Source of the DNA: a virus
Lineage: Duplodnaviria; Heunggongvirae; Uroviricota; Caudoviricetes
Strand: one strand, 5' to 3'
DNA length: 25,494 bases
Virus record (IMG/VR): IMGVR_UViG_3300045988_104440
Span: 1 to 25,494 of that record
This document shows positions 1 to 25,494 of the stretch, in pieces; position 1 is the first letter of the stretch, and the number at the start of each line of letters is the position of its first letter. The notes under the pieces were generated by a model. It had not been told where the DNA came from, ran no database searches, and saw only the letters and a program-made list of their open reading frames with translations. A program made the position numbers and the translations under genes.

Positions 1-27
1 ACCAGGAACCACCTCCTTAGCCTGTGT

Positions 28-54
28 AATCTCCCTTACACGGGCTTATTTTTT
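28..54. other. att: P2-type phage attachment site core (27 bp); attP or a prophage att junction
   Basis: Reverse complement of 28..54 reads AAAAAATAAGCCCGTGTAAGGGAGATT, which matches the P2 att core as I remember it. It lies about 100 bp beyond the ogr stop, as in P2. Recalled from memory, not searched. Confidence 0.6.
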
Positions 55-155: not shown

Positions 156-374
156 TTACATCCACATAATTTGCTGCCCTGACGGTAACGGGTGCGGCCT
201 TACGGCGTGGACTTCTCCCGGCTTTACGATGTATCGCTGTACCGACTCATAAGTGATGAACGTGGCGCTGCAATTCACGTTCTGGCACTGGTGATAACGC
301 TCTTTTGTCGTGTCAGTGATATAGCGACTTGTACGCGCATGTGCGGCATGCTGGCATAAAGGACAATGAAACAT
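156..374 (-). CDS. ogr: Late transcription activator Ogr, zinc-finger protein (72 aa)
   Basis: The 93-aa ORF contains an internal Met that gives a 72-aa protein starting MFHCPLCQHAAHARTSRY with a C-x2-C...C-x4-C cysteine signature. A GGAAGAGG Shine-Dalgarno-like sequence lies upstream of that Met. Position next to D and att matches P2. Confidence 0.8.
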   Translation of the reverse strand: MFHCPLCQHAAHARTSRYITDTTKERYHQCQNVNCSATFITYESVQRYIVKPGEVHAVRPHPLPSGQQIMWM

Positions 375-455
375 CGCGAGCACCTCTTCCGGTTTTGTTG
401 ATGGTGCCATTTTAGTTAATTTACCCTTATAAAACAAACAGATAAATAAACCGCA
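375..455 (-). promoter_or_regulatory. Candidate ogr promoter region
   Basis: AT-rich interval between the D stop and the ogr start on the minus strand; P2 ogr has its own promoter. No confident -35/-10 assignment. Confidence 0.3.
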
Positions 456-1619: not shown

Positions 1620-2098
1620 TATCCCACCCCCGTCATACCCGTGAATTTAGTCGCCATACTGCCAGCCTTACCGATGAGCGACTCCGCCTGTTTACCGATA
1701 TCGCCATAAAGCGCGGCCAGTGATTCATCAACGCGGGTGAGCGACAGCGTAAAATCAATTTTCCGGGGTGTGCCGTCTGCAAAGAAAATACTCCCTGTTT
1801 CACTCACCCTGCTGATGACATACATGCCGTAAATCATGCCGGTGCCATCCAGCAATGGCCACGCCCGACCTTCCTCTGCCATCAGCCTGAGCGTGGTCAT
1901 CGTCAGCTTGCCGCCGGTCAGTTCGGGATAAAGCACACCGGCCAGCGTGATGTTTTCCTCACCCACACCGAGAAATTGAAAGGCATCCCGTTTGCCGATA
2001 CGGGAATTTGACGGCCAGCGATAATCTGATTCACGCTGCATGGTCTGGTGTGGCAGCGTCTGGCGCATAAAAACAAACATACCTAACGCGAGCATCAT
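1619..2098 (-). CDS. U: Tail protein U (159 aa)
   Basis: ORF between T and D with a 1-nt overlap onto D; length equals P2 gpU. Confidence 0.8.
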   Translation of the reverse strand: MMLALGMFVFMRQTLPHQTMQRESDYRWPSNSRIGKRDAFQFLGVGEENITLAGVLYPELTGGKLTMTTLRLMAEEGRAWPLLDGTGMIYGMYVISRVSETGSIFFADGTPRKIDFTLSLTRVDESLAALYGDIGKQAESLIGKAGSMATKFTGMTGVG

Positions 2099-2112
2099 TT
2101 TTCGTCACCTCC

Positions 2113-4560
2113 TTAACCGTCATGCATCATGCTGGCACGGGCGCGCGCACGTTTATCCCGCTCGTATTTTTCGAGCGCATCCTGTAACTGGCGGTCAAGC
2201 GGTGTCCCCGGCGCAGTACCGCCCGTCAGGCTGATGTGATATTCGTTTTTACTCTGGTCCACATAAGAGCGGCCAGCCGGTGCCGTGACCGGCTGATAAG
2301 CCTGATAACCTGCATAAGAGCTGGTCGCCGGAATATAACCACCGCTGCCATACGTGGCGGCTTGAGTTCTGGCGGCGGTCTGGTCAAGTGTGCCTGACTC
2401 TTTGTTGATGACGCCGAGTTTTTCCAGTACCCAGTCAATACCGCCGCGCAGTTTGTTGAACGCATTAAGCGGCAGCATCAGCGCGTCAGCCAGTGCCTGT
2501 CCGAACATGACGCCCGTGTCACGGCAACGGTTCAGGGTGTCCTGGGTGGCTTTGACCGGGGCAATCAGGTTTTTAAACCACTGCCACGCGGCCTGTAACT
2601 TTTCACCCAGCCAGTCAAACACCGGCTTAAGTGGCGTGAACAGTTCCCCCACTGGCGCAAATGCTGCTTTCAGCCCTTCAACCACACCGCCAAAGAATGC
2701 GCTGACAGGCTCCCAGTATTTACGGATAAGCAACGCCCCGGCGACAATGGCGGCCAGCACAGCCACAACCGGCCAGCTAATCGCCCCGATGGCCGTCATA
2801 ACAGCACTGCCAACCGTCGTGAAGATTGCCCCCATTGCGCCTGCTGCCGCGATGATGGCATTAATGCCGGTGATAACCGGCCAGGCTACAAGACCAATTG
2901 CACCGATGATGCCAATAAGCGCCAGTGCGCCACCGACAATAAGGCCGATGGTTGACGCCAGTGATTTGTTTTTCTGGATCCAGCCGTCGAGTTTTAACAC
3001 ATACTTTGTGGCCGTCTGCGTGAGATTACGCAGTGCGCCTTCCTGCTGGTCAAACAGGTCAGTCCCCACCGCCTCATAAGCAGACTGAAACTCCTTAAAG
3101 TCACCGCCTAGGTTGTCCTGCATGATATTTACCAGCTCGGCGGTCTTCCCGTCTGAGGCTTTAAACGCAGCGGTCAGTTTGTCCAGCTTTCCGGTTGAGG
3201 CGGCAGTCATCAGCACGGCGGCGGCTGAGCTGGCCTCCTCCCCGAAAATAGTTTTCATGTATTCAGCCTGCTGGGCAGTACCGAGCCGGTTTTTCTCAAA
3301 ACTGGCCTGCATTTCTTTCAGAATGGTAAATATTGGCCGGGTGTTTCCCTTGCTGTCTGAGGTTTTCACTCCAAGCTCTTTGAGTGCATCCCATGCTTTT
3401 CCCGTCGGTGCCTGCAGGCGGCTTAACACGGCACGGCTTCCCGTCCCCGCCATTGAGCCTGTGATTTTTGCATCATGCAGCGCCCCGACCATTGCGGCGG
3501 TTTCTTCAATGCTGACACCGGCATTTTTTGCCACAGGTGCGGCATAGGTCAGCGCATCGCTCATGCCGTCAAAATCGGCGGCGGTTTTGTTCATCGTCAT
3601 GGAGAGAACATCCCCGATATGAGCGACCTTATCGTTTGAAAGCTGAAAGGCGGATTTCATCCCCATCAGCAGGGCGGCGTTTTCTTCCATCGTGCGGCGG
3701 TTCGCCAGCGCCATATTCAGCGTGACCGGCGTTGCCGCCTGAATGGCATCAACATCCCCACCCGCTTTCGCGATGATTATCTGTGCACCGGCCGCATCAT
3801 CCGCCGAGGCGGCGGTATTGTCGCCGAGCTGGCGCGCCTGTTTGCGTAGTGCGGTCATTTCGGCGGAGTCTTTTGCCACTCCGAGCACGGCCTGCAATTC
3901 TGAGTTTTTCTGCGCAAACTCATAACCGGGCATCAGCAACTTAACTCCGGCCATCGTTCCCGCCGCCGCAATCCCCACACCGGCAGCGCCTACTGAGGCC
4001 ATATTTCCGGCCAGTTCCTTTCCGGCCTGATAACGCTGTTTGACTGCGTTAAGTTTTGCCTGTTGCGCACTGACACGCGCCAGCGCGTCGCGCTGACGGT
4101 TAAGCTGTGCGGTGGTTTCACTGATACGGTTTTTCAGTCCCTGCTCATCATGTGCAAGATTGCGGGTATTAATTCCCACAGCGGCCAGTTCCCGCTGCTG
4201 GCGTTTAACGGAATCCGTCAGGCGGTTATATTTCGCCTGTAAGTCCTCCGCCGCTCGCTTTGCGGATTCCAGCACTTTCGCCTGAGCACGGGTCGGACGT
4301 TCGGTGTTTTTAAACTGTGTGGCAAGGGCTTCGGCTTCCTGCCGTGCCTTTTCAAGTGCATGACCAGTCACGGCGAGCTGCGCACTGGTCTTGCGAAATC
4401 CCTCAATACGGGATGCGTGACCGTTCAGCTCGCGCAGTGATTTTTGTGTTTCCCGGATATCCCCCGACAGCGACTTGCTCGCTGTGCGGATGGATTTAAA
4501 CGGGCGGGATGCCTGGTCAACAGCCCTGAGCAATACCTGTAATTTTACATTGTTACTCAT
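2113..4560 (-). CDS. T: Tail tape measure protein T (815 aa)
   Basis: Long ORF with an alanine/glycine-rich hydrophobic central segment and coiled-coil-like N-terminal part, directly downstream of E/E'. Length equals P2 gpT. Confidence 0.85.
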   Translation of the reverse strand: MSNNVKLQVLLRAVDQASRPFKSIRTASKSLSGDIRETQKSLRELNGHASRIEGFRKTSAQLAVTGHALEKARQEAEALATQFKNTERPTRAQAKVLESAKRAAEDLQAKYNRLTDSVKRQQRELAAVGINTRNLAHDEQGLKNRISETTAQLNRQRDALARVSAQQAKLNAVKQRYQAGKELAGNMASVGAAGVGIAAAGTMAGVKLLMPGYEFAQKNSELQAVLGVAKDSAEMTALRKQARQLGDNTAASADDAAGAQIIIAKAGGDVDAIQAATPVTLNMALANRRTMEENAALLMGMKSAFQLSNDKVAHIGDVLSMTMNKTAADFDGMSDALTYAAPVAKNAGVSIEETAAMVGALHDAKITGSMAGTGSRAVLSRLQAPTGKAWDALKELGVKTSDSKGNTRPIFTILKEMQASFEKNRLGTAQQAEYMKTIFGEEASSAAAVLMTAASTGKLDKLTAAFKASDGKTAELVNIMQDNLGGDFKEFQSAYEAVGTDLFDQQEGALRNLTQTATKYVLKLDGWIQKNKSLASTIGLIVGGALALIGIIGAIGLVAWPVITGINAIIAAAGAMGAIFTTVGSAVMTAIGAISWPVVAVLAAIVAGALLIRKYWEPVSAFFGGVVEGLKAAFAPVGELFTPLKPVFDWLGEKLQAAWQWFKNLIAPVKATQDTLNRCRDTGVMFGQALADALMLPLNAFNKLRGGIDWVLEKLGVINKESGTLDQTAARTQAATYGSGGYIPATSSYAGYQAYQPVTAPAGRSYVDQSKNEYHISLTGGTAPGTPLDRQLQDALEKYERDKRARARASMMHDG

Positions 4561-6758: not shown

Positions 6759-6881
6759 CCGTTTAACTCCGTGGTTAATGGGTGCAACTATTTTCTGTTG
6801 TGCAGAGCATGAGACGCTATTTGACCTGGCTGGTCAGGGGATGAAACAACAGATAAAGAAAATGCGGGCAATTCGCCCGCC

Positions 6882-6899
6882 TGTCCTGATTTGTACACA
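6882..6899 (-). promoter_or_regulatory. Ogr-type late promoter activator site (TGT-N12-ACA) of the FI operon
   Basis: Exact TGT-cctgatttgtac-ACA dyad 124..141 bp upstream of the FI start codon. The P2 late-promoter consensus TGT-N12-ACA is centred near -55. Confidence 0.45.
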
Positions 6900-7130
6900 C
6901 TCATTTTCCGACTGACTATTTAGATAGCCGAAACGCTATCAAATCTGACAGTCTGCTTTGAGCGAGGAGCGGAAGTTCGTAATTGTTCTCACCGTTAAGG
7001 GTCTAGTACTAACATTACCGTATGTTTATCAACGGGGACTACATCAGGCTAAATTCAGTGTGTCACAACCATTAACAAGATTTTCTGTAGCAATCGATAA
7101 CTACTTAAGTTAAAAATAGAAAACTAATCG

Positions 7131-7162
7131 TGTAGCTATAAATCGCTACAATAGACTCGGAG
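7131..7162 (+). promoter_or_regulatory. Candidate promoter/operator and ribosome-binding site for the cargo operon
   Basis: Perfect 6-bp inverted repeat TGTAGC (7131..7136) / GCTACA (7145..7150) flanking a TATAAAT -10-like element (7137..7143). GGAG (7159..7162) lies 6 nt before the ATG at 7169. Confidence 0.3.
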
Positions 7163-7168
7163 TTTGCA

Positions 7169-8395
7169 ATGTCAGATCAGCGTTTTATAAGTAAGATTCA
7201 GGATACTAGGGTTGATTGTTGGTCAGCTTTAGTTGAATTTAATGTTAAAGACTATCTTGGGCTTGCAGAAAAAGCTTACGTTAATAGAGGTGGTATACGA
7301 CATCAACGCGAAGCTCTTAAAACCACAACAGCGAAACGCATTCGCACTAGGCTCGTCGAGGACTTGAGGCGAGGCGCGGTAATCCCTCCTCTGGTCATTG
7401 GTATAGTCGCTGACAATGACGATTGGCAGACAATTGAAGGTATCTCAGAGTCCGAGCAAGTAAAGCAACTCCTTAAAAAATATTATGAAGAATTGTCGAT
7501 TATTGATGGGATGCAACGCACCACAGCTCTTAAAGAAGCATTAGCTTTAGATGAAAACGTAGCCGATCATGTGATTAGGGTAGAAGCCTGGATTGCGAAA
7601 GGCACAGAGAGTTTAATATATCGAATGCTTGTTTTAAACACTGGGCAGGTACCATGGAACCTGAAACAACAACTAGAGGTTGTTTATGCTCCACTTGTGA
7701 AAACTATTAGCCAAAAAGTCAACTTTCGTAGGCTTCTCTCTGCATCGGATAGACGATGGCAAGGAGGGGAGTTTAAAACATACTCGTTGATTGAGTCTTA
7801 TATAGCTTTTGGATTGCGTCGAACTGAGGTCGATACTCAAGAGAGTCTAGCCGATGAGTTTTCAAGGCTAGATATCGCAGAAGCGCTCACCAATAAAAAA
7901 TATGACCATTATTTTTATCGTGTCGTGCAAATGTTAGTTAATTTCGATATTGCGCTATCGATATATAATGAAGTGCAGAATATCGATATTGCAGACCCTT
8001 CTGAGGGTTCCGATAGTCTAGAGGTAGGAATAAAAGCCAGAAAATTAGTAAGAGGCCGAAATATTTTTGATACTCAAGCAGCGCGAGTTGGTTTTATCGT
8101 TGCTTGTGCAGTCAGCATCCTTGGCAGAGTTGGCATGGACAAGGAAGAAGAAGTCAGTGAAGAGAGATGTGCCTTACTAGAGGAATCTTGTGCTGCTCTT
8201 GTTAAAAGGATTACCGCCTTAAATAGAGAAAATTTAGAAGAATTTTTATCGCTAGATGTTTTAGCTGAAAAATTGTCCCGGAGACCGAGTTCAGCAGTTG
8301 GTAGATGGGAGCGGTCATTCTTTGAGGCTGCGTTCCGAGTATTAGTAGAAGAAAACTTTAATATACCCAACATGGAGCCATGCTGGCGGGCATAA
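7169..8395 (+). CDS. Hypothetical protein (408 aa), candidate ParB/DndB-like (DGQHR-type) protein; cargo gene 1
   Basis: Complete ORF with a GGAG ribosome-binding site. HQRE (aa 44-47) followed about 65 aa later by IIDGMQRTTAL (7504..7518 encodes DGMQR), resembling the QR...DGQ(Q/H)R signature of ParB/Srx-fold DndB/DUF262-like proteins. AT-rich, on the strand opposite to the late genes. Confidence 0.6.
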   Translation: MSDQRFISKIQDTRVDCWSALVEFNVKDYLGLAEKAYVNRGGIRHQREALKTTTAKRIRTRLVEDLRRGAVIPPLVIGIVADNDDWQTIEGISESEQVKQLLKKYYEELSIIDGMQRTTALKEALALDENVADHVIRVEAWIAKGTESLIYRMLVLNTGQVPWNLKQQLEVVYAPLVKTISQKVNFRRLLSASDRRWQGGEFKTYSLIESYIAFGLRRTEVDTQESLADEFSRLDIAEALTNKKYDHYFYRVVQMLVNFDIALSIYNEVQNIDIADPSEGSDSLEVGIKARKLVRGRNIFDTQAARVGFIVACAVSILGRVGMDKEEEVSEERCALLEESCAALVKRITALNRENLEEFLSLDVLAEKLSRRPSSAVGRWERSFFEAAFRVLVEENFNIPNMEPCWRA

Positions 8396-8396
8396 T

Positions 8397-9491
8397 ATGT
8401 CTAGAAATAAAATAGAAATGTCGACGGACATTTTTCAAAAAATACATGATTCTGCATCTGCTCAGGACTCTACGTACATAGCCGATAATGAAAAAAGATG
8501 GCTTGCTCGTAAAGATAACGAGGATTTAAACCTTATGATTAATGCAGAGGTTAACGTTCTTATTTTGGGGGCGAAGACGTTCGCCGTCTCTATTAAGAAT
8601 GGTTCTGATAACTACTTCTGTTTTAGCGGTTTAGATATCCCCGAACAACTTCCCGCCAGTCTCACTGAGATTGAGCCCACGCCTGGCATCTTTTCATGCG
8701 TTGTGTTCACCGTCAATCTCCCAGCATTAGCTACAGCGGCTAAGGCTAGAGACATTTTAGAACAGCAATACCTGGGGCAGGAAGGTTACGTCGGGCATGA
8801 ACTTAACGAGATCGCTCCACTCTTTCCAAAACTATACTTTGTTAAGGCTAACGAAAATATAAGCACTACTTTTTTAAATAATTTAGAGCGTGTAGCTGGT
8901 GCCTATATTGCTGCAGGATACGTTAGCCACCCTTTAGAGGTTAATGATAATTTAAAGTTGCGACTACTGTCTCTATTTGAAGTTGGAGCAGAAACCATAC
9001 CGTTTCGTCTACCTCTGCAGGGTCTATTATCTTATAATTGGTCATCGTTATTTTTGGATCTTTATCGATGCTTAGAGCAGTTATATACCGCGCAAAAGTT
9101 GAAAAATTTAGTCACTAAACTCCCATACAAAGGTACTTTGGCAGATCTCGCATATTTACTGGAAGATGAATTGTCATGGAGACCAAAAGAGCAGGATGCA
9201 TTAGCTAGTATACTGGCATGTTCAACTGAAAACACACGTTCGAAAATTCTATCTGCATTCAAACTCAACGTGCCCGAGTTAACCGAGTACTCGCCAAGCA
9301 AGTGCGCAAGTAATATATATAAGCTGAGGAATTCTCATGTTCATTTTCGCCCAGCAATGAAAGCAGAAAATAAACCCACCGAACAGTGGAATGAAATTTT
9401 GATAGCGATGTGTGATGCCGTTGATGACGTTTATGAAGCTCTCGGTGCTGAATTCTTAATAGATAGGTCAAACTTAGAGTCGGTCAGGTAA
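8397..9491 (+). CDS. Hypothetical protein (364 aa), unknown family; cargo gene 2
   Basis: Complete ORF starting 1 nt after the stop of cargo gene 1 (TAA-a-ATG), implying translational coupling. No motif I can assign confidently; a C-terminal R-x4-H (LRNSHVH, 9324..9344) is noted. Confidence 0.55.
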   Translation: MSRNKIEMSTDIFQKIHDSASAQDSTYIADNEKRWLARKDNEDLNLMINAEVNVLILGAKTFAVSIKNGSDNYFCFSGLDIPEQLPASLTEIEPTPGIFSCVVFTVNLPALATAAKARDILEQQYLGQEGYVGHELNEIAPLFPKLYFVKANENISTTFLNNLERVAGAYIAAGYVSHPLEVNDNLKLRLLSLFEVGAETIPFRLPLQGLLSYNWSSLFLDLYRCLEQLYTAQKLKNLVTKLPYKGTLADLAYLLEDELSWRPKEQDALASILACSTENTRSKILSAFKLNVPELTEYSPSKCASNIYKLRNSHVHFRPAMKAENKPTEQWNEILIAMCDAVDDVYEALGAEFLIDRSNLESVR

Positions 9492-9602
9492 TATGCATGA
9501 TTAAAATTGTCATGCGTAACCTAAGCTTATAATTTGTCTATCATATTCATCCTAGATAGATGACTCTATGCTCATCCCCCAGATGAATATATTACAAACC
9601 TT

Positions 9603-9625
9603 AAAAAGCCGTCCTTTAGGACGGC
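9603..9625 (-). terminator. Rho-independent terminator between the convergent cargo operon and gene G
   Basis: Hairpin GCCGTCC-ttta-GGACGGC (9608..9625) preceded on the plus strand by AAAAA (9603..9607), which is a U-tract for minus-strand transcripts. Only a weak T-run follows on the plus strand. Confidence 0.5.
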
Positions 9626-9924
9626 TGTAAACTCTATATTAAACTGGCTCTTACTTTTGCGAACACTGACTTCCACTTTTTATACAATGAAGGTCGAACA
9701 ATAAGAAAAAATCTCCGCTTATATTAACCAAAAGCATCTATTTGTTATCCACGTAATATCTTGCGCGATATAAACATACCAGCAGGTTTCTTAGCATTGA
9801 TCTGCTCCCCATTGATTAAAACAGCGTGATGTTTGCTATGTCCGTTCTTGGCACAGAGCGGACTGTCAAATTAGGCTTTACTCTGTGCCATAGATATGTA
9901 AGCTCCCACCAGAGCTCATACAAC

Positions 9925-10452
9925 TTATTGCGGCATTTCCGGCCATTCAGGATTTGTAGGATCCACACGACTGACCAGAACGCTGTAGCGTTCCCAAGCC
10001 TCCAGCCGTGTGCGCTCCTCCTCTGTTGCCATGTTCAGCCTGACAGCACGCTCTAGCGGCAAAATCACGGATTCAGCATCTGCAAGAAGTCTGGCTTTCC
10101 TGTTTTCTGCCTGCAGTTGCAATTCCTCTGCCGTATAAATTCGTTTGATCACTGTGCCATCCTTAAACATCCAGTTCCCTGAAATGTCCGCCCGTCGGTT
10201 AGCAGTAATATCCGCCACTTCAACAACACTTAATCCATCCGGTCTGATAGCTGTCACATCCTTTTCCACATAGCGGATGATATTATCTTTGTCGTACGCT
10301 ATTTTTATCGTGTCATCAGCAAAATACTTTTGTTCTTCGTACCAGTTCTTACCATCTTCTGAAAAAAACCAGACAACATCAAAATTCTTTGTCAATTGAT
10401 ATTGTTCAACCGTTTTTGGATTACCCGCCGTAATATTTTTTAAATGCTGCAT
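9925..10452 (-). CDS. G: Tail fibre assembly protein G (175 aa)
   Basis: ORF directly downstream of H with a 3-nt gap; length equals P2 gpG. Confidence 0.75.
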
Positions 10453-10455
10453 AAA

Positions 10456-12702
10456 TTATACCTGCGCCACGTTATACCATGTCCCGTTAATGTATTTCTG
10501 CACCGGTCTGTAATATACGCCACCAATGTTATCGGCAGAGTTTGAGCCGGTATCCTGAACAATAATGCCGGTATATACGCAACCTGACGGAGCCTGATGC
10601 GTCCATGTAGTACCATTATTTGCTGGTTTATATGTAGATGCACCGCCCAGTCGCATGTCTCTCACATAACGTGAATCTGACTCAGCTTTGGTGTATGCAC
10701 CAACATCTCCCGCTGATGGTTTTCGTGTTGTGGTATAGAAATCAGACCAGCCAGATTCAAAACCATAACCATCACGGGCTGACCTGTAAGATATACCGCC
10801 ATTTTTATAATTCACACGAAACTGTACAGCCGGGCAGCTACCAGCATTTATATTAAAGTGAAGAATTAATGCAGATGCTCCCCCAATCAGAGCGTTGTAT
10901 GCGCCACTGTCCCAATTCCATCCAACGGCTGTATCACCATTAACCGTATTACCTGTCTGCCGAAGTGCAAATGCACCGACATTTCTGGCATTAAGGGTAA
11001 TATCTCCAGAACCATCAAAGGCAACACCTGCTATTTTCCTCGGTGTTTCGAGTTTTGAGGCTGTTGCAGCATTTCCTGAAAGGTTGGAAATAAATGGATG
11101 TGAGCAGTAATAACCGCGCCCATTTTTAAAATCCAGAATAGCCTGTGCATTCGTGCTTTCTGTGGCAGGATTAGTTGCCCCCCACTTATATGTCGTCTGA
11201 CCGACGACATAATCCTCTGTCGGAACAATAACCGTTAGCCCTTCCTCTGCAAGAATTTGCACAGGGAAAGCTCTGGCTTCAACATAAAAAACACTACATA
11301 CATCATCATCTTTCAGGCTTGTAACAATGGAATGGATTGAACGCTCATTGGTCTGATACGTCCAGAAATAGCCTGCCGCATATGAACCGCGATCAGTCCA
11401 TCCTCCGGGCATAACCATGCCATTAAACTCGCAGTTATTCATTACATAATCGCCGTTATAACAACCAGTGGAAATAACGACGCGGGATGCCATTTCTCCT
11501 GAAAGGCTGGCAGCACGGCGAAAGATAACGGGATACCACTTCCCGGCAACGACATTTGCAGGGGCTGCAAACGAATACTTTCGCATTCCCTTTTTCTTAT
11601 CCACTTCACCTTTGCTGTAAACATTAATGTTACTCAGGAAGCGTTCTTTATCAGGAATATCCGCACCGTTCTTATCTTTCTGAAGACGTTTTTCAGCATT
11701 GTCATTGGCAGACTTCACCGCTTTTGGTGTTGCGGCCAGCGTTTCAGAATCACTGTTGGTGGCGCTACTGAGCTGGACAAGACCTTTTCGCGCTGTGGTG
11801 GCATCCTGTGCAGTGTATTTCCCGTTAGCAAGGTCATACGCTGTCTTAACCGCCTTTGGCGTTGCGGCCAGCGTTTCAGAATCGCTGTTGGTGGCACTAC
11901 TGAGCTGAACAAGGCCTTTTCGCGCGGTGGTGGCGTCCTGCGCGGTGTATTTGCCATTAGCAAGGTCATATGCTGCCTTAACCGCTTTTGGTGTTGCGGC
12001 GAGCGTTTCAGACGCGCTGCTGGTCGCACTACTGAGCTGGACAATACCTTTTCGCGCTGTGGTAGCGTCCTGTGCGGTATATTTCCCGTTAGCAAGGTCA
12101 TACGCGGCCTTTACCGCTTTCGGCGTTGCGGCCAGTGTTTCAGACGTGCTGTTGGTCGCATTGCTTAACTGAGTAAAACCTTTTGCGGTCAGCGAGGCGT
12201 CCGGGTGACGTCGTGACTGTTCATGCTCTGCAATTTTGTCATCAACGTAATCCTGCGTCGCCATCACCGTTGTGGTGTCAATGGTCAGCTCCACTGAGGC
12301 CACACTGCTGACGATGATGACCATGCGACAGGTCTGCGAACGCCCTGAGCCTTCGGCAAGAGCTGGCTTATAACTTTCGGCCATGTTCGCCACGGCAATT
12401 AATGTTCCCGCATCATCGTACAGGCCAAGCTCACGCATCCAGAAACCGCCCACCTCCGGCGGAATAACCAGCTCTGCGATAATATAATTACTGTTTCGTT
12501 TGTCCTGGCTGATTTTGTTCAGCGCATGTCGCCAGACTTCATGGATAAGCCCGGTCTGTCCGGCATCCGGGACAGGCAATTTACCACCGCCATCCCCGAC
12601 GGCCATCGTGGTAATGTTGACCTTCCGCCCTCCCGGCGCGGTTGCCGCTGCCAGCTTTGCTGCACCGGCAGTGGTGATAACGGTTCTGAATTTTGTGCTC
12701 AT
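10456..12702 (-). CDS. H: Tail fibre protein H (748 aa) with internal tandem repeats
   Basis: Long ORF after baseplate genes I/J. Contains four 44-aa repeats with the SETLAATPKAVK(A/T)AYDLANGKYTAQDATTARKG motif. Longer than the 669 aa I recall for P2 gpH. Confidence 0.85.
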   Translation of the reverse strand: MSTKFRTVITTAGAAKLAAATAPGGRKVNITTMAVGDGGGKLPVPDAGQTGLIHEVWRHALNKISQDKRNSNYIIAELVIPPEVGGFWMRELGLYDDAGTLIAVANMAESYKPALAEGSGRSQTCRMVIIVSSVASVELTIDTTTVMATQDYVDDKIAEHEQSRRHPDASLTAKGFTQLSNATNSTSETLAATPKAVKAAYDLANGKYTAQDATTARKGIVQLSSATSSASETLAATPKAVKAAYDLANGKYTAQDATTARKGLVQLSSATNSDSETLAATPKAVKTAYDLANGKYTAQDATTARKGLVQLSSATNSDSETLAATPKAVKSANDNAEKRLQKDKNGADIPDKERFLSNINVYSKGEVDKKKGMRKYSFAAPANVVAGKWYPVIFRRAASLSGEMASRVVISTGCYNGDYVMNNCEFNGMVMPGGWTDRGSYAAGYFWTYQTNERSIHSIVTSLKDDDVCSVFYVEARAFPVQILAEEGLTVIVPTEDYVVGQTTYKWGATNPATESTNAQAILDFKNGRGYYCSHPFISNLSGNAATASKLETPRKIAGVAFDGSGDITLNARNVGAFALRQTGNTVNGDTAVGWNWDSGAYNALIGGASALILHFNINAGSCPAVQFRVNYKNGGISYRSARDGYGFESGWSDFYTTTRKPSAGDVGAYTKAESDSRYVRDMRLGGASTYKPANNGTTWTHQAPSGCVYTGIIVQDTGSNSADNIGGVYYRPVQKYINGTWYNVAQV
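11713..12200 (-). repeat. In-frame 132-bp tandem repeat array (about 3.7 copies) inside H
   Basis: Units begin at 11713, 11845, 11977 and 12109, exactly 132 bp apart; the last copy is more diverged. This explains the spurious ORFs on both strands here. Confidence 0.75.
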
Positions 12703-21567: not shown

Positions 21568-23340
21568 ATGACCATCACCACAGACACCACTCTTTTGCAC
21601 GACCCGCGTCGTCAGGCGGCGCTGCTGTACTGGCAGGGGTTTTCCGTGCCGCAGATTGCCGCCATGTTGCAGATGAAACGCCCGACGGTGCAGAGCTGGA
21701 AACAGCGCGACGGCTGGGACAGCGTTGCCCCCATCAGCCGTGTCGAAATGAGTCTGGAAGCGCGGCTGACCCAGCTCATTATCAAACCGCAGAAAACCGG
21801 CGGTGACTTCAAGGAAATTGACCTGCTCGGACGCCAGATTGAACGACTGGCACGGGTAAACCGCTACAGCCAGACCGGCAACGAGGCAGACCTTAATCCG
21901 AACGTCGCTAACCGCAACAAAGGCGGGCGTCGCAAACCGAAAAAGAATTTTTTCAGCGACGAGGCTATCGAAAAGCTGGAGCAGATTTTCTTTGAGCAGT
22001 CTTTCGACTATCAGTTGCACTGGTATCGCGCCGGGCTTGAGCACCGCATCCGCGATATCCTGAAATCCCGCCAGATTGGCGCGACGTTTTATTTTTCCCG
22101 CGAGGCGCTGCTGCGCGCCCTGAAAACAGGTCATAACCAGATTTTTCTGTCGGCCAGTAAAACGCAGGCGTATGTGTTCCGCGAATACATCATCGCCTTT
22201 GCCCGTCTGGTTGACGTTGACCTGACCGGTGACCCGATTGTCCTGGGCAATAACGGCGCAAAACTGATTTTTCTCGGCACCAACTCCAACACCGCGCAGA
22301 GCCATAACGGCGACCTGTACGTCGACGAGATTTTCTGGATCCCGAATTTTCAGGTGCTGCGTAAGGTGGCATCAGGTATGGCCTCACAGAGTCACCTGCG
22401 ATCGACCTATTTCTCCACCCCGTCCACGCTGGCGCACGACGCCTACCCGTTCTGGTCGGGTGAACTGTTCAACCGGGGACGCGCCAGCGCCGCCGAACGC
22501 GTGGAAATCGACGTCAGTCATAACGCCCTTGCCGGTGGGCTTCTCTGTGCGGACGGCCAGTGGCGGCAGATTGTCACCATTGAGGACGCCCTGAAAGGCG
22601 GCTGCACGCTGTTCGACATTGAGCAGCTCAAACGCGAAAACAGCGCCGACGATTTTAAAAACCTGTTCATGTGTGAATTTGTTGACGACAAGGCATCGGT
22701 GTTCCCGTTCGAGGAGCTGCAACGCTGCATGGTCGACACGCTGGAAGAATGGGAAGACTATGCCCCCTTTGCCGCCAATCCGTTCGGCTCCCGCCCGGTA
22801 TGGATTGGTTACGACCCGTCACACCGTGGCGACAGCGCCGGATGCGTGGTGCTGGCACCGCCGGTGGTGGCCGGTGGCAAATTCAGGATCCTTGAGCGTC
22901 ACCAGTGGAAAGGTATGGACTTTGCCACTCAGGCGGAATCCATCCGCAAACTCACTGAAAAATACAACGTCGAATACATCGGTATTGATGCCACCGGCCT
23001 CGGTGTCGGCGTGTTCCAGCTCGTGCGCTCGTTCTATCCCGCCGCGCGCGATATCCGCTACACGCCGGAAATGAAAACCGCAATGGTGCTCAAGGCAAAA
23101 GACGTTATCCGCCGTGGCTGTCTGGAATATGACGTCAGCGCCACCGACATCACCAGCTCGTTTATGGCTATCCGCAAGACCATGACCAGCAGCGGACGCA
23201 GCGCCACCTATGAGGCCAGCCGCAGCGAGGAAGCCAGCCACGCCGACCTCGCCTGGGCGACCATGCACGCCCTGTTAAATGAGCCACTCACCGCCGGTAT
23301 CAGCACTCCGCTGACATCCACCATTCTGGAGTTTTACTGA
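21568..23340 (+). CDS. P: Terminase large (ATPase) subunit P (590 aa)
   Basis: The 600-aa ORF trimmed to the Met starting MTITTDTT, which has GAGG 5 nt upstream, gives 590 aa, equal to P2 gpP. Divergent from O and followed by Q. Confidence 0.85.
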   Translation: MTITTDTTLLHDPRRQAALLYWQGFSVPQIAAMLQMKRPTVQSWKQRDGWDSVAPISRVEMSLEARLTQLIIKPQKTGGDFKEIDLLGRQIERLARVNRYSQTGNEADLNPNVANRNKGGRRKPKKNFFSDEAIEKLEQIFFEQSFDYQLHWYRAGLEHRIRDILKSRQIGATFYFSREALLRALKTGHNQIFLSASKTQAYVFREYIIAFARLVDVDLTGDPIVLGNNGAKLIFLGTNSNTAQSHNGDLYVDEIFWIPNFQVLRKVASGMASQSHLRSTYFSTPSTLAHDAYPFWSGELFNRGRASAAERVEIDVSHNALAGGLLCADGQWRQIVTIEDALKGGCTLFDIEQLKRENSADDFKNLFMCEFVDDKASVFPFEELQRCMVDTLEEWEDYAPFAANPFGSRPVWIGYDPSHRGDSAGCVVLAPPVVAGGKFRILERHQWKGMDFATQAESIRKLTEKYNVEYIGIDATGLGVGVFQLVRSFYPAARDIRYTPEMKTAMVLKAKDVIRRGCLEYDVSATDITSSFMAIRKTMTSSGRSATYEASRSEEASHADLAWATMHALLNEPLTAGISTPLTSTILEFY

Positions 23341-24374
23341 TGAGCAAGAAAAAAGGGAAAACACCGCGACCAGCGGCAAAAACAATGACCGCCAGCGCCC
23401 CGAAAATGGAGGCATTCACCTTTGGTGAGCCGGTGCCGGTACTCGATCGCCGTGACATTCTGGATTACGTCGAGTGCATCAGTAACGGCAGATGGTATGA
23501 GCCACCGGTCAGCTTTACCGGTCTGGCAAAAAGCCTGCGTGCTGCCGTGCATCACAGCTCCCCGATTTACGTCAAACGTAATATTCTGGCCTCGACATTT
23601 ATCCCGCATCCGTGGCTTTCCCAGCAGGATTTCAGCCGCTTTGTGCTGGATTTTCTGGTGTTCGGTAATGCGTTTCTGGAAAAGCGTTACAGCACCACCG
23701 GTAAGGTCATCAGACTGGAAACCTCACCGGCAAAATATACCCGCCGTGGTGTGGAAGAAGATATTTACTGGTGGGTGCCGTCCTTCAACGAGCCAACACC
23801 TTTCACGCCCGGCTCCGTGTTTCACCTGCTGGAGCCGGATATCAATCAGGAGCTGTACGGCCTGCCGGAATATCTCAGCGCCCTTAACTCTGCCTGGCTG
23901 AATGAATCAGCCACGCTGTTCCGCCGCAAGTATTACGAAAACGGCGCACATGCCGGATACATCATGTACGTCACCGATGCCGTGCAGGATCGCAACGATA
24001 TCGAAATGCTCCGCGAAAACATGGTGAAGTCGAAAGGCCGCAACAACTTTAAAAACCTGTTTCTCTATGCCCCACAGGGGAAAGCCGACGGCATTAAAAT
24101 TATCCCGCTCAGTGAAGTGGCAACGAAGGACGATTTTTTTAATATCAAAAAAGCCAGCGCCGCTGACCTGCTGGACGCGCACCGCATCCCCTTTCAGTTG
24201 ATGGGCGGCAAGCCGGAGAACGTCGGGTCGCTGGGCGATATTGAGAAAGTGGCAAAGGTCTTTGTCCGCAATGAGCTTATCCCGCTACAGGACAGGATCC
24301 GCGAGATAAACGGCTGGCTCGGCCAGGAAGTCATCCGCTTTAAAAACTACTCACTGGACACTGACAACGGCTGA
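23340..24374 (+). CDS. Q: Portal protein Q (344 aa)
   Basis: Its start overlaps the P stop (TGATG); length equals P2 gpQ. It is the last gene before cos. Confidence 0.85.
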   Translation: MSKKKGKTPRPAAKTMTASAPKMEAFTFGEPVPVLDRRDILDYVECISNGRWYEPPVSFTGLAKSLRAAVHHSSPIYVKRNILASTFIPHPWLSQQDFSRFVLDFLVFGNAFLEKRYSTTGKVIRLETSPAKYTRRGVEEDIYWWVPSFNEPTPFTPGSVFHLLEPDINQELYGLPEYLSALNSAWLNESATLFRRKYYENGAHAGYIMYVTDAVQDRNDIEMLRENMVKSKGRNNFKNLFLYAPQGKADGIKIIPLSEVATKDDFFNIKKASAADLLDAHRIPFQLMGGKPENVGSLGDIEKVAKVFVRNELIPLQDRIREINGWLGQEVIRFKNYSLDTDNG

Positions 24375-24378
24375 ACAT

Positions 24379-24401
24379 CGCCGCCTGCGGGCGGCTTTTT
24401 T
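24379..24401 (+). terminator. Rho-independent terminator after Q
   Basis: Hairpin GCCGCC-tgcgg-GGCGGC (24379..24395) followed by TTTTTT (24396..24401), 5 nt after the Q stop codon. Confidence 0.65.
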
Positions 24402-24544
24402 ACACCCCGTCATCACGCCCTCATACGCTCACCACCGCACAAAACACACCGCAGACACACCAACGGCCCCGGCGAACAATTTAAACGCCATCACGACGCG
24501 CTCAGACGCTGAAAAAATAAAATCAGCACCACCGCCAGCGCGCA

Positions 24545-24563
24545 GTGCTTTCCCCGCCTCGCC
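24545..24563. other. cos: cos cohesive-end sequence (19 nt), P2 type
   Basis: 24545..24563 is GTGCTTTCCCCGCCTCGCC, the reverse complement of GGCGAGGCGGGGAAAGCAC, which is the P2 cohesive end as I recall it. It sits about 170 bp beyond Q, as expected. Confidence 0.6.
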
Positions 24564-24893
24564 CGCCCGCTTCATGGGGCGGTTTTAATGCAGTTGCATG
24601 AGTACGTTGAATCCTCGCTAGCTGTGACGTAAAGCAATGAGGACGCATAACTTTGACACATGCAAAACCATGCACCTGATACATTCATAGTTATTACTTT
24701 GTAAAAACATAAAAAAAGGAAATCCCATGAACAAAAATCAAACTATTAATAAAAATTTTTATATCTCTTAGAACAAAAGATTTTGCTTGAACAAAGTAAA
24801 CTTCTGAGGTAGATCTTTATCGTTTAGCAAAATAATTCATGTTAAACAGCTTAAATATTTATACCATATCATTGGCAGTGATGAGGTTTTAAA

Positions 24894-25494
24894 ATGGAAC
24901 TTAAATTAAAGGATATAACCAGCTATAAGAAAGATAGCTTCACAACTCTTAATCTCTCAAAAAAAATCAATATACTTTATGGTCACAACGGTTGTGGAAA
25001 ATCAACCATATCTAATTATTTCTATAATCCAAATAACACGGACTACAAAGAATGCGAATGTCCTTTCATAGATACTTTTCGCCTATTGGTTTATAATACT
25101 AAGTTTATTGAGGATAATTTTTATAATGCAAAAGAGCAAAAAGGAGTATTCACTTTAAGTAAGGAAAATGCTGACATTGAAAAAGAATTATTGGAAAAAG
25201 AAGCTATAAGACAAGACCTACTTACAAAATACAAAGATAAAAAAAACGTTATTGAGCGTTTAATTAACGATAAAAACAATAAAGAAAATGAATATATTGA
25301 TTTAATATGGAATAAAGCAGAACCTTTTAGATCATCTGACTTAAAGAACTTGATGAAAGGTCAGTTAGGAAGCAAGAGATCATTTTATGAGCAAGTTAAA
25401 AAAGCCCCTCAAACCACTGACGTTAACATCGAGTCACTTGCTCAAGAATATAGTATTCTTTTAAAGAATAAAGATAAATTCACTGCAGATCGGA
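24894..25494 (+). CDS. P-loop ATPase (ABC/SMC-like), 5' part only; runs off the window
   Basis: ATG at 24894 with GAGG 6 nt upstream and an open frame to the window edge (200 codons). Walker A motif GHNGCGKST (24981..25007) is followed by a long charged, coiled-coil-like region. AT-rich. This ORF is not in the supplied track because it has no stop inside the window. Confidence 0.55.
   Translation, partial: MELKLKDITSYKKDSFTTLNLSKKINILYGHNGCGKSTISNYFYNPNNTDYKECECPFIDTFRLLVYNTKFIEDNFYNAKEQKGVFTLSKENADIEKELLEKEAIRQDLLTKYKDKKNVIERLINDKNNKENEYIDLIWNKAEPFRSSDLKNLMKGQLGSKRSFYEQVKKAPQTTDVNIESLAQEYSILLKNKDKFTADR

What the first reader, a model, noticed from the sequence alone, without database searches (positions are those of the whole stretch)
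24894..25494. Second AT-rich cargo locus just past cos: a Walker-A ATPase with a coiled-coil insertion
After the Q terminator and cos, base composition drops sharply and a new plus-strand gene begins with a canonical P-loop (GHNGCGKST) followed by a long K/E-rich segment. That pattern is typical of ABC/SMC-like (AAA_13/15/21-type) ATPases found in Old, Gabija, PARIS, Septu and PrrC/RloC-like defence proteins. The position corresponds to the P2 tin/old accessory locus, the other known defence hotspot of P2-like phages. The gene is truncated by the window, so any C-terminal nuclease domain or partner gene is unseen.
Basis: partly seen in the sequence, partly recalled or inferred. Interest (0 to 1): 0.7.

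Follow-up and report, generated by a model that had tools for sequence, protein, structure and literature searches.

The report
Prophage RloC-like anticodon nuclease gene
The window ends inside the first quarter of a P2-prophage cargo gene for an RloC-type protein, a Rad50-like ATPase fused to a tRNA-cutting nuclease that probably shuts down translation in infected cells; this cargo has already been catalogued at this spot in P2-like phages.

Summary
After portal gene Q (23340-24374), its terminator and an exact P2 cos site (24545-24563), GC falls from about 0.57 to 0.30. A plus-strand ORF starts at 24894 with the Walker A motif GHNGCGKST, followed by a charged helical arm. It runs off the window after 198 codons; the last 7 bases look like Illumina adapter.

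Near-identical DNA in 20 complete E. coli genomes shows the full gene. It encodes 739 aa and stands alone between cos and replication gene A, in the slot and orientation of P2 old/tin.

The full protein matches Pfam AAA_13 end to end (1.8e-102) and PADLOC candidate PDC-S06 (840 bits). It meets every sequence criterion published for RloC: ABC-ATPase motifs, a coiled-coil insert with an invariant CPFC zinc hook, and a C-terminal R647-x3-E651-x39-S690-H691 anticodon-nuclease triad. The predicted ATPase head is closest to Rad50 and SMC.

It is not an Old, Gabija, PARIS or Septu homologue, and it has no TOPRIM or HNH domain.

Most likely it is a self-contained, DNA-break-gated tRNA nuclease that protects the lysogen population by abortive infection.

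Rousset et al. 2022 already list this cargo as "AAA_13, RloC-like", 420 occurrences in the P2 hotspot. It is therefore known and ordinary, though I found no phage-defence test of the P2 clade.

The parts
23340..24374 (+). Portal gene Q of the P2-like prophage (context; last core gene before cos)
   Evidence: ORF; the syntenic gene is annotated 'phage portal protein' in L001 and carries Pfam Phage_portal in L003/L004.
24380..24395 (+). Intrinsic-terminator-like hairpin plus T-run after Q
   Evidence: Six G-C pairs, 4-nt loop, TTTTTT tail. This is a consensus match only.
24545..24563 (-). P2 cos: the 19-nt cohesive-end sequence
   Evidence: Exact match, 0 expected by chance. Identical to the annotated cosR of NC_001895.
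24564..24689 (.). cos-flanking segment still shared with other P2-like phages; the cargo boundary lies at its right end
   Evidence: Homology to reference P2 runs to about 24592. Homology to Salmonella phage STYP1 and Yersinia phages runs to 24689. STYP1 then carries a different cargo, a Fic/VbhT gene.
24690..24893 (+). AT-rich leader of the cargo module, with a candidate promoter (TAAACA-18-TATCAT, 24843-24872) and an RBS (GAGG, 24883-24886)
   Evidence: GC 0.31. The promoter-like site scores 9/12 and is a consensus match only. The RBS is read directly from the sequence. The segment is conserved at about 98% in the 20 E. coli genomes that carry this allele.
24894..25487 (+). First 198 codons of a 739-codon RloC-like gene: ATPase N-lobe and the outgoing coiled-coil arm
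   Evidence: Translation. 195/198 identical to P0001. Fragment hits: AAA_13 4e-18 and PDC-S06 5.9e-57.
24981..25007 (+). Walker A / P-loop codons (GHNGCGKST, aa 30-38)
   Evidence: G30, G35 and K36 are conserved in 228/229 family members and G33 in 226/229.
25161..25316 (+). Codons for the long outgoing helix (aa 90-141) of the coiled-coil insert
   Evidence: AlphaFold2 model of P0001: helix 90-141 with pLDDT about 89-93 (lower, about 69, at its first residues), paired in topology with returning helix 403-447. The segment is K/E-rich.
25488..25494 (.). Non-homologous 7-nt tail, probably Illumina adapter read-through at a contig end
   Evidence: The alignment to L001 breaks here. The last 8 nt, AGATCGGA, equal the adapter start as I recall it.

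Best explanation
The finding is the 5' quarter of a single-gene cargo in the cos-proximal (old/tin) hotspot of a P2-like prophage. The gene encodes a 739-aa RloC-family protein. Its Rad50-like ABC ATPase head is split by a coiled-coil insert of about 360 aa that carries a CPFC zinc hook. A C-terminal HEPN-type anticodon nuclease follows.

Proposed mechanism, by analogy with the characterised RloC enzymes:
1. The lysogen expresses the protein at a low level from its own AT-rich promoter.
2. In uninfected cells the zinc hook and coiled coil keep the nuclease silent.
3. Infection by another phage creates DNA ends or breaks. These bind the ATPase head, and ATP hydrolysis switches the nuclease on.
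4. The nuclease cuts tRNA anticodon loops. RloC excises the wobble nucleotide, which resists phage tRNA repair.
5. Translation stops and the infection aborts, which protects sibling lysogens and therefore the prophage.

Shown here: location, gene architecture, all sequence motifs, family membership and solo context. Inferred: expression, the trigger, tRNA cleavage and its specificity, and protection against phages.
For: Location and context
- It is a single gene between portal/cos and gpA in every near-identical copy and in a 70%-identity allele. It has the same slot and orientation as P2 old-tin.
- The left boundary of the swap is shared with a phage that carries a different cargo.

Family assignment
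- Pfam AAA_13 matches end to end: residues 16-716 against profile positions 9-712 of 713, E = 1.8e-102.
- PADLOC PDC-S06 scores 840 bits full length, and the C-terminal 457-734 hits the PrrC model at 1.5e-14.
- Proteins that JGI names 'wobble nucleotide-excising tRNase' align full length at 27-28% identity, E about 1e-52 to 1e-58, and hit the same PDC-S06 models.
- Streptococcus prophage homologues are annotated 'translation-disabling ACNase'.

Published RloC criteria (PMC2610378) all met
- Walker A, the LSEGE signature, the DDP Walker B and the TH switch histidine are present.
- C254-P-F-C257 is present.
- R647-x3-E651-x39-S690-H691 is present.
- These residues are invariant across 28 sequences down to 25% identity and 96-100% conserved in 229 full-length members.

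Structure and family size
- In the AlphaFold2 model (pLDDT 80.7), long helices 90-141 and 403-447 flank a helical insert. An ABC head and an all-helical C-terminal domain complete the fold.
- The heads and the nuclease domain are conserved among enterobacterial alleles (0.73-0.81 identity to P0001). The coiled-coil arms vary (0.34-0.49).
- The family is large and uniform: 2,920 50%-identity clusters at E <= 1e-30, with the best 150 spanning 689-787 aa.

Literature on mechanism and prior cataloguing
- In GkaRloC the nuclease is silenced by the zinc hook and activated by the DNA-dependent ATPase (PMC3458546).
- DSB inducers activate RloC in vivo (PMC3874168).
- Prophage-borne ABC-HEPN proteins were noted by Anantharaman et al. 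2013.
- Rousset et al. 2022, Table S5B, lists 'AAA_13 ... RloC-like' with 420 occurrences in the P2 hotspot. The visible 399 aa of its representative are 48% identical to P0001.
Against: - Only 198 of 739 codons are in the window. The zinc hook, the C-lobe and the nuclease domain are seen only in relatives, so this copy could be damaged downstream.
- I found no experimental test of the P2 clade. Terms for it are absent from Rousset's table of tested systems, and PADLOC lists it only as a candidate.
- It is only about 25-28% identical to proteins labelled RloC.
- Direct phage protection by RloC itself is thinly documented in the library I could search. It is listed as 'not tested' in a 2025 survey.
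- The E-to-H spacer is 33-40 residues in this family, at or just below the published 36-52 range.
- The HEPN fold of the C-terminal domain was not confirmed structurally. The single-sequence model was too poor to use.
Confidence: 0.8

Rival explanations
1. It is an OLD/Gabija/PARIS/Septu-type defence ATPase, that is, an ABC ATPase working with a TOPRIM or HNH nuclease either fused or encoded next door. These were the other options the first reader listed.
For: It has the same slot as P2 old. Weak PADLOC hits to PtuA, GajA, AriA and LmuB appear on the fragment. Retron PtuA, AriA and LmuB appear far down the fold-match lists.
Against: Most of those hits cover only the 30-45 residues around the P-loop. 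The PtuA and AriA hits reach into the coiled-coil arm but score under 26 bits, against 192 bits for PDC-S06. No TOPRIM or HNH family appears in Pfam or PADLOC on the full protein. BLASTP against P2 Old gives E = 1.1. No partner gene exists between cos and gpA. The C-terminus carries the PrrC/RloC triad instead.
Confidence: 0.01
2. It is a bona fide RloC-family nuclease whose main role is not anti-phage defence. It could be a DNA-damage stress responder that transiently throttles translation, or a selfish addiction-like module that stabilises the prophage.
For: In A. baylyi, DSB inducers alone activate RloC and cause partial, temporary tRNA loss without any phage (PMC3874168). Phage protection by RloC is rarely tested. 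Homologues also sit as solo genes in chromosomal spots outside prophages.
Against: In E. coli it occupies a locus where validated anti-phage systems are exchanged (Rousset 2022). Its neighbours in the same exchange are old/tin and Fic. The same prophage carries a Dazbog-like locus at its other hotspot. The variable coiled coil combined with conserved catalytic parts fits an arms-race sensor.
Confidence: 0.1
3. The nuclease domain is active but targets RNAs other than tRNA anticodon loops (mRNA or rRNA), or cuts tRNA without excising the wobble base, so it acts like a general HEPN RNase or like PrrC.
For: HEPN RNases have diverse substrates (PMC3710099). Identity to characterised RloC enzymes is low. 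AbaRloC and GkaRloC already differ in tRNA preference.
Against: The whole C-lobe plus nuclease region aligns with the PrrC model. The Arg/Glu/His triad and its spacing are the ACNase signature.
Confidence: 0.08
4. In this genome the gene is a dead remnant and the window end reflects a real truncation or rearrangement.
For: The window ends at codon 198. Truncated family members exist in databases (546-559 aa clusters P0042 and P0046). One complete genome shows the gene split into two CDS (H53).
Against: The 198 codons are intact and 98% identical to full-length copies. The break coincides with adapter-like sequence rather than a mobile-element end or prophage DNA.
Confidence: 0.07

Closest known systems
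RloC (wobble-nucleotide-excising anticodon nuclease; Geobacillus kaustophilus and Acinetobacter baylyi enzymes; COG4694 / Pfam PF13166 AAA_13)
   Same: It has the same three-part architecture: a Rad50-like ABC ATPase head, a coiled-coil insert with a central CxxC zinc hook, and a C-terminal R-x3-E-x(~40)-S-H nuclease triad. It is a solo gene without an RM silencer, and residue positions are offset by only about 35-46 from GkaRloC (C291, R692, E696, H737 versus C254/C257, R647, E651, H691).
   Different: It is about 25-28% identical to proteins labelled RloC. It is carried in the P2 cos-proximal hotspot. Its activity, trigger and tRNA targets are untested. I made no direct alignment to the characterised enzymes.
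'AAA_13, RloC-like' system #5 of the P2 hotspot (Rousset et al. 2022, Table S5B) = PADLOC PDC-S06 = PHROG 2801
   Same: It is the same locus and the same single-gene architecture. The visible 399 aa of Rousset's representative are 48% identical and colinear with P0001. PDC-S06 scores 840 bits and phrog_2801 scores 1195 bits.
   Different: This is a different allele. The allele here occurs in 20 of 5,426 complete E. coli genomes. These resources give a catalogue or candidate label only, and PHROGs says 'unknown function'.
PrrC (E. coli anticodon nuclease embedded in the EcoprrI type Ic RM locus)
   Same: It shares the ABC ATPase C-lobe and the ACNase domain with the Arg-Glu-His triad. The PADLOC PrrC model hits residues 457-734 at 1.5e-14.
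   Different: PrrC is about 370-400 aa with no coiled-coil or zinc-hook insert, and it is silenced by adjacent hsd genes. This protein is 739 aa with a 360-aa insert and no hsd neighbours.
P2 Old (ABC ATPase + TOPRIM; reported in a 2026 preprint as a DNA-triggered abortive tRNase)
   Same: It occupies the same genomic slot and orientation. The logic is the same: an ABC ATPase sensor gates a tRNA-cleaving effector in a single polypeptide that responds to aberrant DNA.
   Different: There is no sequence similarity beyond the P-loop. The effector is HEPN-type rather than TOPRIM, and the ATPase carries a long Rad50-like coiled coil.
Rad50 / SbcC / SMC heads
   Different: There is no Mre11/SbcD partner. 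The coiled coil is much shorter. It has an extra C-terminal nuclease domain and sits in a defence-hotspot context.

Membership tests
RloC | N-terminal ABC-ATPase Walker A (P-loop) | tested here: met
   GHNGCGKST is at aa 30-38 in the window itself. K36 is conserved in 228/229 family members.
RloC | [quoted passage not shown] | tested here: met
   L499-S-E-G-E503, FIVIDDP (D535, D536, P537) and T571-H572 are invariant in A1 and 99-100% conserved in 229 members. They are seen only in full-length relatives (98% identical over the shared part), not in the window.
RloC | Coiled-coil insert in the ATPase with a central CX2C zinc hook (Rad50-like) | tested here: met
   C254-P-F-C257 is conserved in 229/229. 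It lies near the midpoint of the insert bounded by long helices 90-141 and 403-447. Rad50 and SMC are the best fold matches. Zinc binding itself was not tested.
RloC | C-terminal ACNase triad Arg-X3-Glu-X36-52-His, with Ser often before His | tested here: met
   R647-x3-E651-x39-S690-H691 is present. R is conserved in 229/229, E in 220/229 (plus 7 Asp), H in 228/229 and S in 226/229. The spacer is mostly 36-39 residues, with a few at 33-35.
RloC | Usually not linked to a type I RM locus (internal switch instead of an external silencer) | tested here: met
   It is a solo gene in the P2 slot and in Vibrio, Serratia and Iodobacter chromosomes. No hsd genes are adjacent.
RloC | tRNA anticodon-loop cleavage with excision of the wobble nucleotide | not testable with these tools
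   This needs tRNA-seq, northern blots or an in vitro assay.
RloC | ACNase activated by a DNA-dependent ATPase and de-silenced by zinc-hook mutations | not testable with these tools
   This is a biochemical property of GkaRloC (PMC3458546).
PADLOC PDC-S06 (phage defence candidate, single gene) | Full-length match to the PDC-S06 profile HMMs | tested here: met
   PDLC04886 matches at 3.5e-253, 840.7 bits, residues 2-732 against profile positions 4-725 of 727. The fragment alone scores 192 bits. JGI-labelled RloC proteins hit the same models.
P2 cos-proximal (old/tin) hotspot cargo | Variable insert between cos/gpQ and gpA of a P2-like phage | tested here: met
   cos is at 24545-24563. gpA follows the gene in relatives. 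Other cargos (old/tin, Fic) occupy the same flanks.
PrrC | Compact protein of about 400 aa with no coiled-coil insert, embedded in a type Ic hsd locus | tested here: not met
   The protein is 739 aa with an insert of about 360 aa. There are no hsd neighbours. Only the C-lobe and nuclease region resemble PrrC.
OLD family / Gabija GajA / PARIS AriAB | TOPRIM nuclease domain fused to, or encoded beside, the ABC ATPase | tested here: not met
   No TOPRIM hit appears in Pfam or PADLOC. BLASTP against P2 Old gives E = 1.1. There is no second gene.
Septu PtuA / Lamassu LmuB | Full-length similarity plus the partner gene (PtuB HNH; LmuA/LmuC) | tested here: not met
   Hits are weak (E 1e-4 to 3e-6). 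The LmuB hits cover about 40 N-terminal residues and the PtuA hit covers residues 7-119. There are no partner genes.
Rad50/SbcC | Works with an Mre11/SbcD nuclease; long coiled coil; no C-terminal RNase domain | tested here: not met
   The similarity is structural and confined to the head. No sbcD-like neighbour is present, and an extra C-terminal triad domain is present.

The most novel reading that the evidence does not exclude
The P2 cos-proximal slot may preferentially exchange self-contained 'ABC-ATPase DNA sensor + tRNase' proteins built on unrelated nuclease folds: Old with TOPRIM and this RloC-like protein with HEPN. The P2-clade RloC-like protein would then be a real, still unvalidated anti-phage effector. 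Its fast-evolving coiled-coil arms would tune which phage DNA structures (ends, replication intermediates) trip the switch. Wobble-base excision would make it resistant to phage tRNA repair. It would give a tractable E. coli model for demonstrating RloC-mediated immunity directly, which the literature I could search has barely done.
Probability: 0.3. Interest if true: 0.45.

Novelty: already known. Interest (0 to 1): 0.22.

Why it matters
As a discovery it matters little. The protein is in RefSeq at 99% identity to the representative cluster sequence P0001. The family is Pfam AAA_13 and PADLOC PDC-S06. Rousset et al. 2022 already list an RloC-like gene as the fifth most frequent system of this P2 hotspot.

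Its practical value has three parts:
- It corrects the uninformative labels 'AAA family ATPase' (PGAP) and 'unknown function' (PHROG 2801) to a specific, testable function.
- The P2 clade appears never to have been tested for phage defence. A recent preprint reports that P2 Old, the classical occupant of the same slot, is also a DNA-triggered tRNase. A side-by-side comparison in E. coli would be cheap and informative.
- It shows that this prophage carries two defence cargos, the Dazbog-like locus and this gene.

Tried and rejected
- PDB sequence search with the full protein found nothing relevant (one E = 0.05 chance hit). No PrrC or RloC structure appeared in the fold searches.
- NCBIfam has no model for the family; only sub-threshold noise appeared.
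- P2 Old comparison showed no homology beyond the P-loop, so Old membership is rejected.
- I tried to find APECO1_4465, the prototype of Anantharaman's prophage ABC-HEPN group, in APEC O1 by guessing coordinates (810-909 kb). It was not there, and I dropped the search. Whether that group equals this family is untested.
- The literature search for 'RloC-like / AAA_13 / PF13166' returned almost only irrelevant papers, because 'AAA13' matched unrelated text. One search failed on a two-letter term. The 2026 P2/P4 hotspot preprint does not mention RloC, PrrC or AAA.
- AlphaFold of the C-terminal 155 aa as a single sequence gave pLDDT 52. That is too poor for a fold search, so the HEPN fold was not confirmed structurally.
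- The Rfam scan found no RNA family in the cos/cargo region.
- The promoter call is only a 9/12 consensus match in very AT-rich DNA and should not be trusted.

Full report
**1. What is in the sequence**

The window is a P2-like prophage read from its host junction. The 3' end of the CyaR sRNA lies at 1-51 and an Ogr-family gene at 156-437. Tail, head and terminase genes follow, ending with portal gene Q at 23340-24374.

A terminator-like hairpin sits at 24380-24395. The exact 19-nt P2 cohesive-end sequence occurs once, at 24545-24563 on the minus strand, with none in 100 shuffles. It is identical to the annotated cosR of reference P2.

GC is 0.596 across 24375-24592. It then falls to 0.306 for 24593-24893 and 0.290 for 24894-25487, against a window median of 0.557. 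The lowest-GC 600-nt stretch of the entire window begins at 24701.

An ORF starts at ATG 24894, seven bases after a GAGG. It is open to the end of the window and has no competing ORF longer than 52 aa. It encodes GHNGCGKST at residues 30-38.

**2. Why the gene stops**

The final 7 nt (GATCGGA) diverge from the near-identical relative L001, and all megablast alignments to relatives end at window 25487. The last 8 nt equal the first 8 nt of the Illumina adapter AGATCGGAAGAGC, which I quote from memory. The window therefore ends at an assembly artefact. Nothing suggests biological truncation, but the downstream three quarters of the gene cannot be seen in this genome.

**3. The full gene, from relatives**

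Megablast finds the cos-to-ORF segment at 95-98% identity in 20 complete E. coli genomes. In NZ_CP020835.1 the ORF is 2,220 nt, encoding 739 aa, and is annotated 'AAA family ATPase'. It is the only gene between portal/cos and the replication endonuclease gpA. The early operon, cox, C and int follow.

The same layout appears on metagenomic contigs carrying a 99%-identical protein, P0001. It also appears for an allele only 70% identical in DNA. The window's 198 codons are 195/198 identical to P0001.

In reference P2 this slot holds old and tin, transcribed away from cos toward A, which is the orientation of this gene. Homology to reference P2 stops at about 24592. Homology to Salmonella phage STYP1 stops at 24689, after which STYP1 carries a Fic/VbhT gene instead. 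The cargo module therefore begins at about 24690, exactly where GC collapses.

**4. What the protein is**

*Profile matches*
- Pfam AAA_13 (PF13166) matches end to end: residues 16-716 against profile positions 9-712 of 713, E = 1.8e-102.
- PADLOC's candidate PDC-S06 matches at 840 bits over the full length. The only named defence protein with a substantial hit is PrrC, over residues 457-734 at 1.5e-14.
- Hits to PtuA, LmuB, GajA and AriA are weak. Most cover only the residues around the P-loop.
- PHROGs has the family as phrog_2801, 'unknown function'. NCBIfam has nothing.
- Distant full-length homologues (27-28% identity, E about 1e-52 to 1e-58) are named 'wobble nucleotide-excising tRNase' by JGI. 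They hit the same PDC-S06 models. Streptococcus prophage homologues are annotated 'translation-disabling ACNase'.

*RloC criteria.* Davidov and Kaufmann (PMC2610378) define RloC by three features: ABC-ATPase motifs, a coiled-coil insert with a central CX2C zinc hook, and a C-terminal Arg-X3-Glu-X36-52-His triad, often with Ser before His. The relevant residues are invariant in an alignment of 28 homologues down to 25% identity:
- Walker A: G30, N32, G33, G35, K36, T38
- Zinc hook: C254-P-F-C257
- ABC signature: L499-S-E-G-E503
- Walker B: D535-D-P537
- Switch histidine: T571-H572
- Nuclease triad: R647, E651, S690-H691

The E-to-H spacer is 39 residues. Across 229 full-length members drawn from two searches, conservation is as follows:
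- both cysteines, R647 and H572: 229/229
- H691 and K36: 228/229
- E651: 220/229, with Asp in seven more

*Structure*
- The AlphaFold2 model has mean pLDDT 80.7. It shows an ABC head, a long outgoing helix (90-141), a long returning helix (403-447), a helical insert between them, and an all-helical C-terminal domain.

*Family size.* A profile search of 1.84 billion representatives finds 2,920 clusters at E <= 1e-30. The best 150 span 689-787 aa.

*Exclusions.* There is no TOPRIM or HNH domain and no similarity to P2 Old beyond the P-loop.

The gene is therefore an RloC-family ABC-ATPase/anticodon-nuclease fusion.

**5. How it most likely works**

*Established for characterised RloC enzymes*
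- GkaRloC cleaves tRNA anticodon loops and excises the wobble nucleotide.
- Its nuclease is silent until the DNA-dependent ATPase fires, and zinc-hook mutations bypass that control (PMC3458546).
- DSB inducers activate RloC in heterologous hosts and in A. baylyi, where tRNA-Glu and tRNA-Gln are hit (PMC3874168).

*Inferred for this gene*
- The lysogen expresses it from the AT-rich leader.
- DNA ends or breaks generated by a superinfecting phage switch on the ATPase and release the nuclease.
- Translation stops and the infection aborts, which benefits the clonal lysogens and therefore the prophage.

*Consistent observations*
- It is a solo gene with no silencer, both here and in Vibrio, Serratia and Iodobacter chromosomes.
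- Among enterobacterial alleles, catalytic parts are conserved (0.73-0.81 identity to P0001) while coiled-coil arms vary (0.34-0.49).
- It sits in a locus where validated defence systems are swapped.
- A 2026 preprint reports that P2 Old, the classical tenant of this slot, is itself an ABC-ATPase-gated abortive tRNase triggered by aberrant DNA. The two are analogous in logic and unrelated in nuclease fold.

*Not shown.* Expression, the trigger, the substrate, wobble excision and phage protection remain untested.

**6. Rivals**

- Old/Gabija/PARIS/Septu membership is excluded.
- A non-defence stress role cannot be excluded, because DSB inducers alone activate RloC and phage protection by RloC is thinly documented. 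I give it about 0.1.
- A different RNA substrate is possible, at about 0.08.
- A dead copy in this genome is possible, at about 0.07. The intact 198 codons and the adapter-like break argue against it.

**7. Comparison with what is known, and novelty**

The family was recognised as prophage-borne ABC-HEPN by Anantharaman et al. 2013. Rousset et al. 2022 analysed 18,150 occurrences of this P2 locus and list 'AAA_13 ... RloC-like' as system 5, with 420 occurrences. The visible 399 residues of their representative are 48% identical and colinear with P0001. Terms for it are absent from their table of tested systems. PADLOC carries it as the untested candidate PDC-S06, and a 2025 preprint mentions an E. 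coli PDC-S06 ATPase as a likely true positive.

The finding is therefore already known as a catalogued kind, and the exact protein is in RefSeq. What remains open is experimental validation of the P2 clade.

**8. Verdict**

- Identity as an RloC-family gene is near certain for the full-length relatives and very likely for this copy.
- Function as an abortive-infection tRNase is probable but inferred.
- Interest is low, at about 0.2. The most novel reading still open is that the P2 slot trades convergent DNA-sensing tRNases and that this clade could serve as the E. coli model for RloC immunity. That would be moderately interesting if true.

Noticed in passing
window 6801-11600, ORFs 7169-8395 (+) and 8397-9491 (+): This is the other AT-rich cargo locus (GC 0.42), lying between tail genes. 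The first ORF (408 aa) hits PADLOC DzbA of the Dazbog system at 2.8e-50, with weak GmrSD_N/DndB Pfam hits. The second ORF (364 aa) has no hit in PADLOC, Pfam or PHROGs. The locus is probably a Dazbog-like two-gene defence system at the P2 Z/fun position.
   Followed up: partly
window 1-51 (+) and 156-437 (-): The 3' part of the host sRNA CyaR/RyeE (Rfam RF00112, 66.8 bits) lies at the very start of the window, followed by an Ogr/Delta zinc-finger gene. The window therefore begins at the prophage-host junction next to cyaR.
   Followed up: partly
window 25487-25494: The last 8 nt, AGATCGGA, equal the start of the Illumina TruSeq adapter as I recall it, and 7 of them diverge from the near-identical relative L001. 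The source contig seems to end in untrimmed adapter.
   Followed up: yes
L016 (Salmonella phage STYP1) 4027-5133; L002 (P2) 1685-4381: The same cos-flanking sequence is followed by a Fic/VbhT AMP-transferase gene in STYP1 and by old-tin in P2. This shows cargo exchange with a left breakpoint at about window 24690.
   Followed up: partly
literature: bioRxiv 10.64898/2026.07.10.737580: A preprint reports that P2 Old is an abortive tRNase triggered by aberrant DNA or RecBCD deficiency. The classical occupant of this slot and the RloC-like protein would therefore share tRNA as a target.
   Followed up: partly
NZ_CP056036.1 (hit H53); protein clusters P0042 and P0046: In one complete genome the gene is annotated as two 'AAA family ATPase' CDS and the match is 1 nt longer, which suggests a frameshift. 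Clusters of 546-559-aa versions, with up to 1,244 member sequences, also exist. Decayed or truncated copies therefore seem common.
   Followed up: no
L007-L009 (Vibrio splendidus) 9735-10289: The Vibrio homologue (39% identity) sits in a variable island next to a weak DUF4145 protein and several unannotated genes, with an integrase nearby in one strain. This may be another defence islet.
   Followed up: no
L001 14490-14714: In the closest complete-genome relative, the prophage's TraR/DksA zinc-finger gene is annotated as a pseudogene with an internal stop. That prophage copy may be decaying.
   Followed up: no
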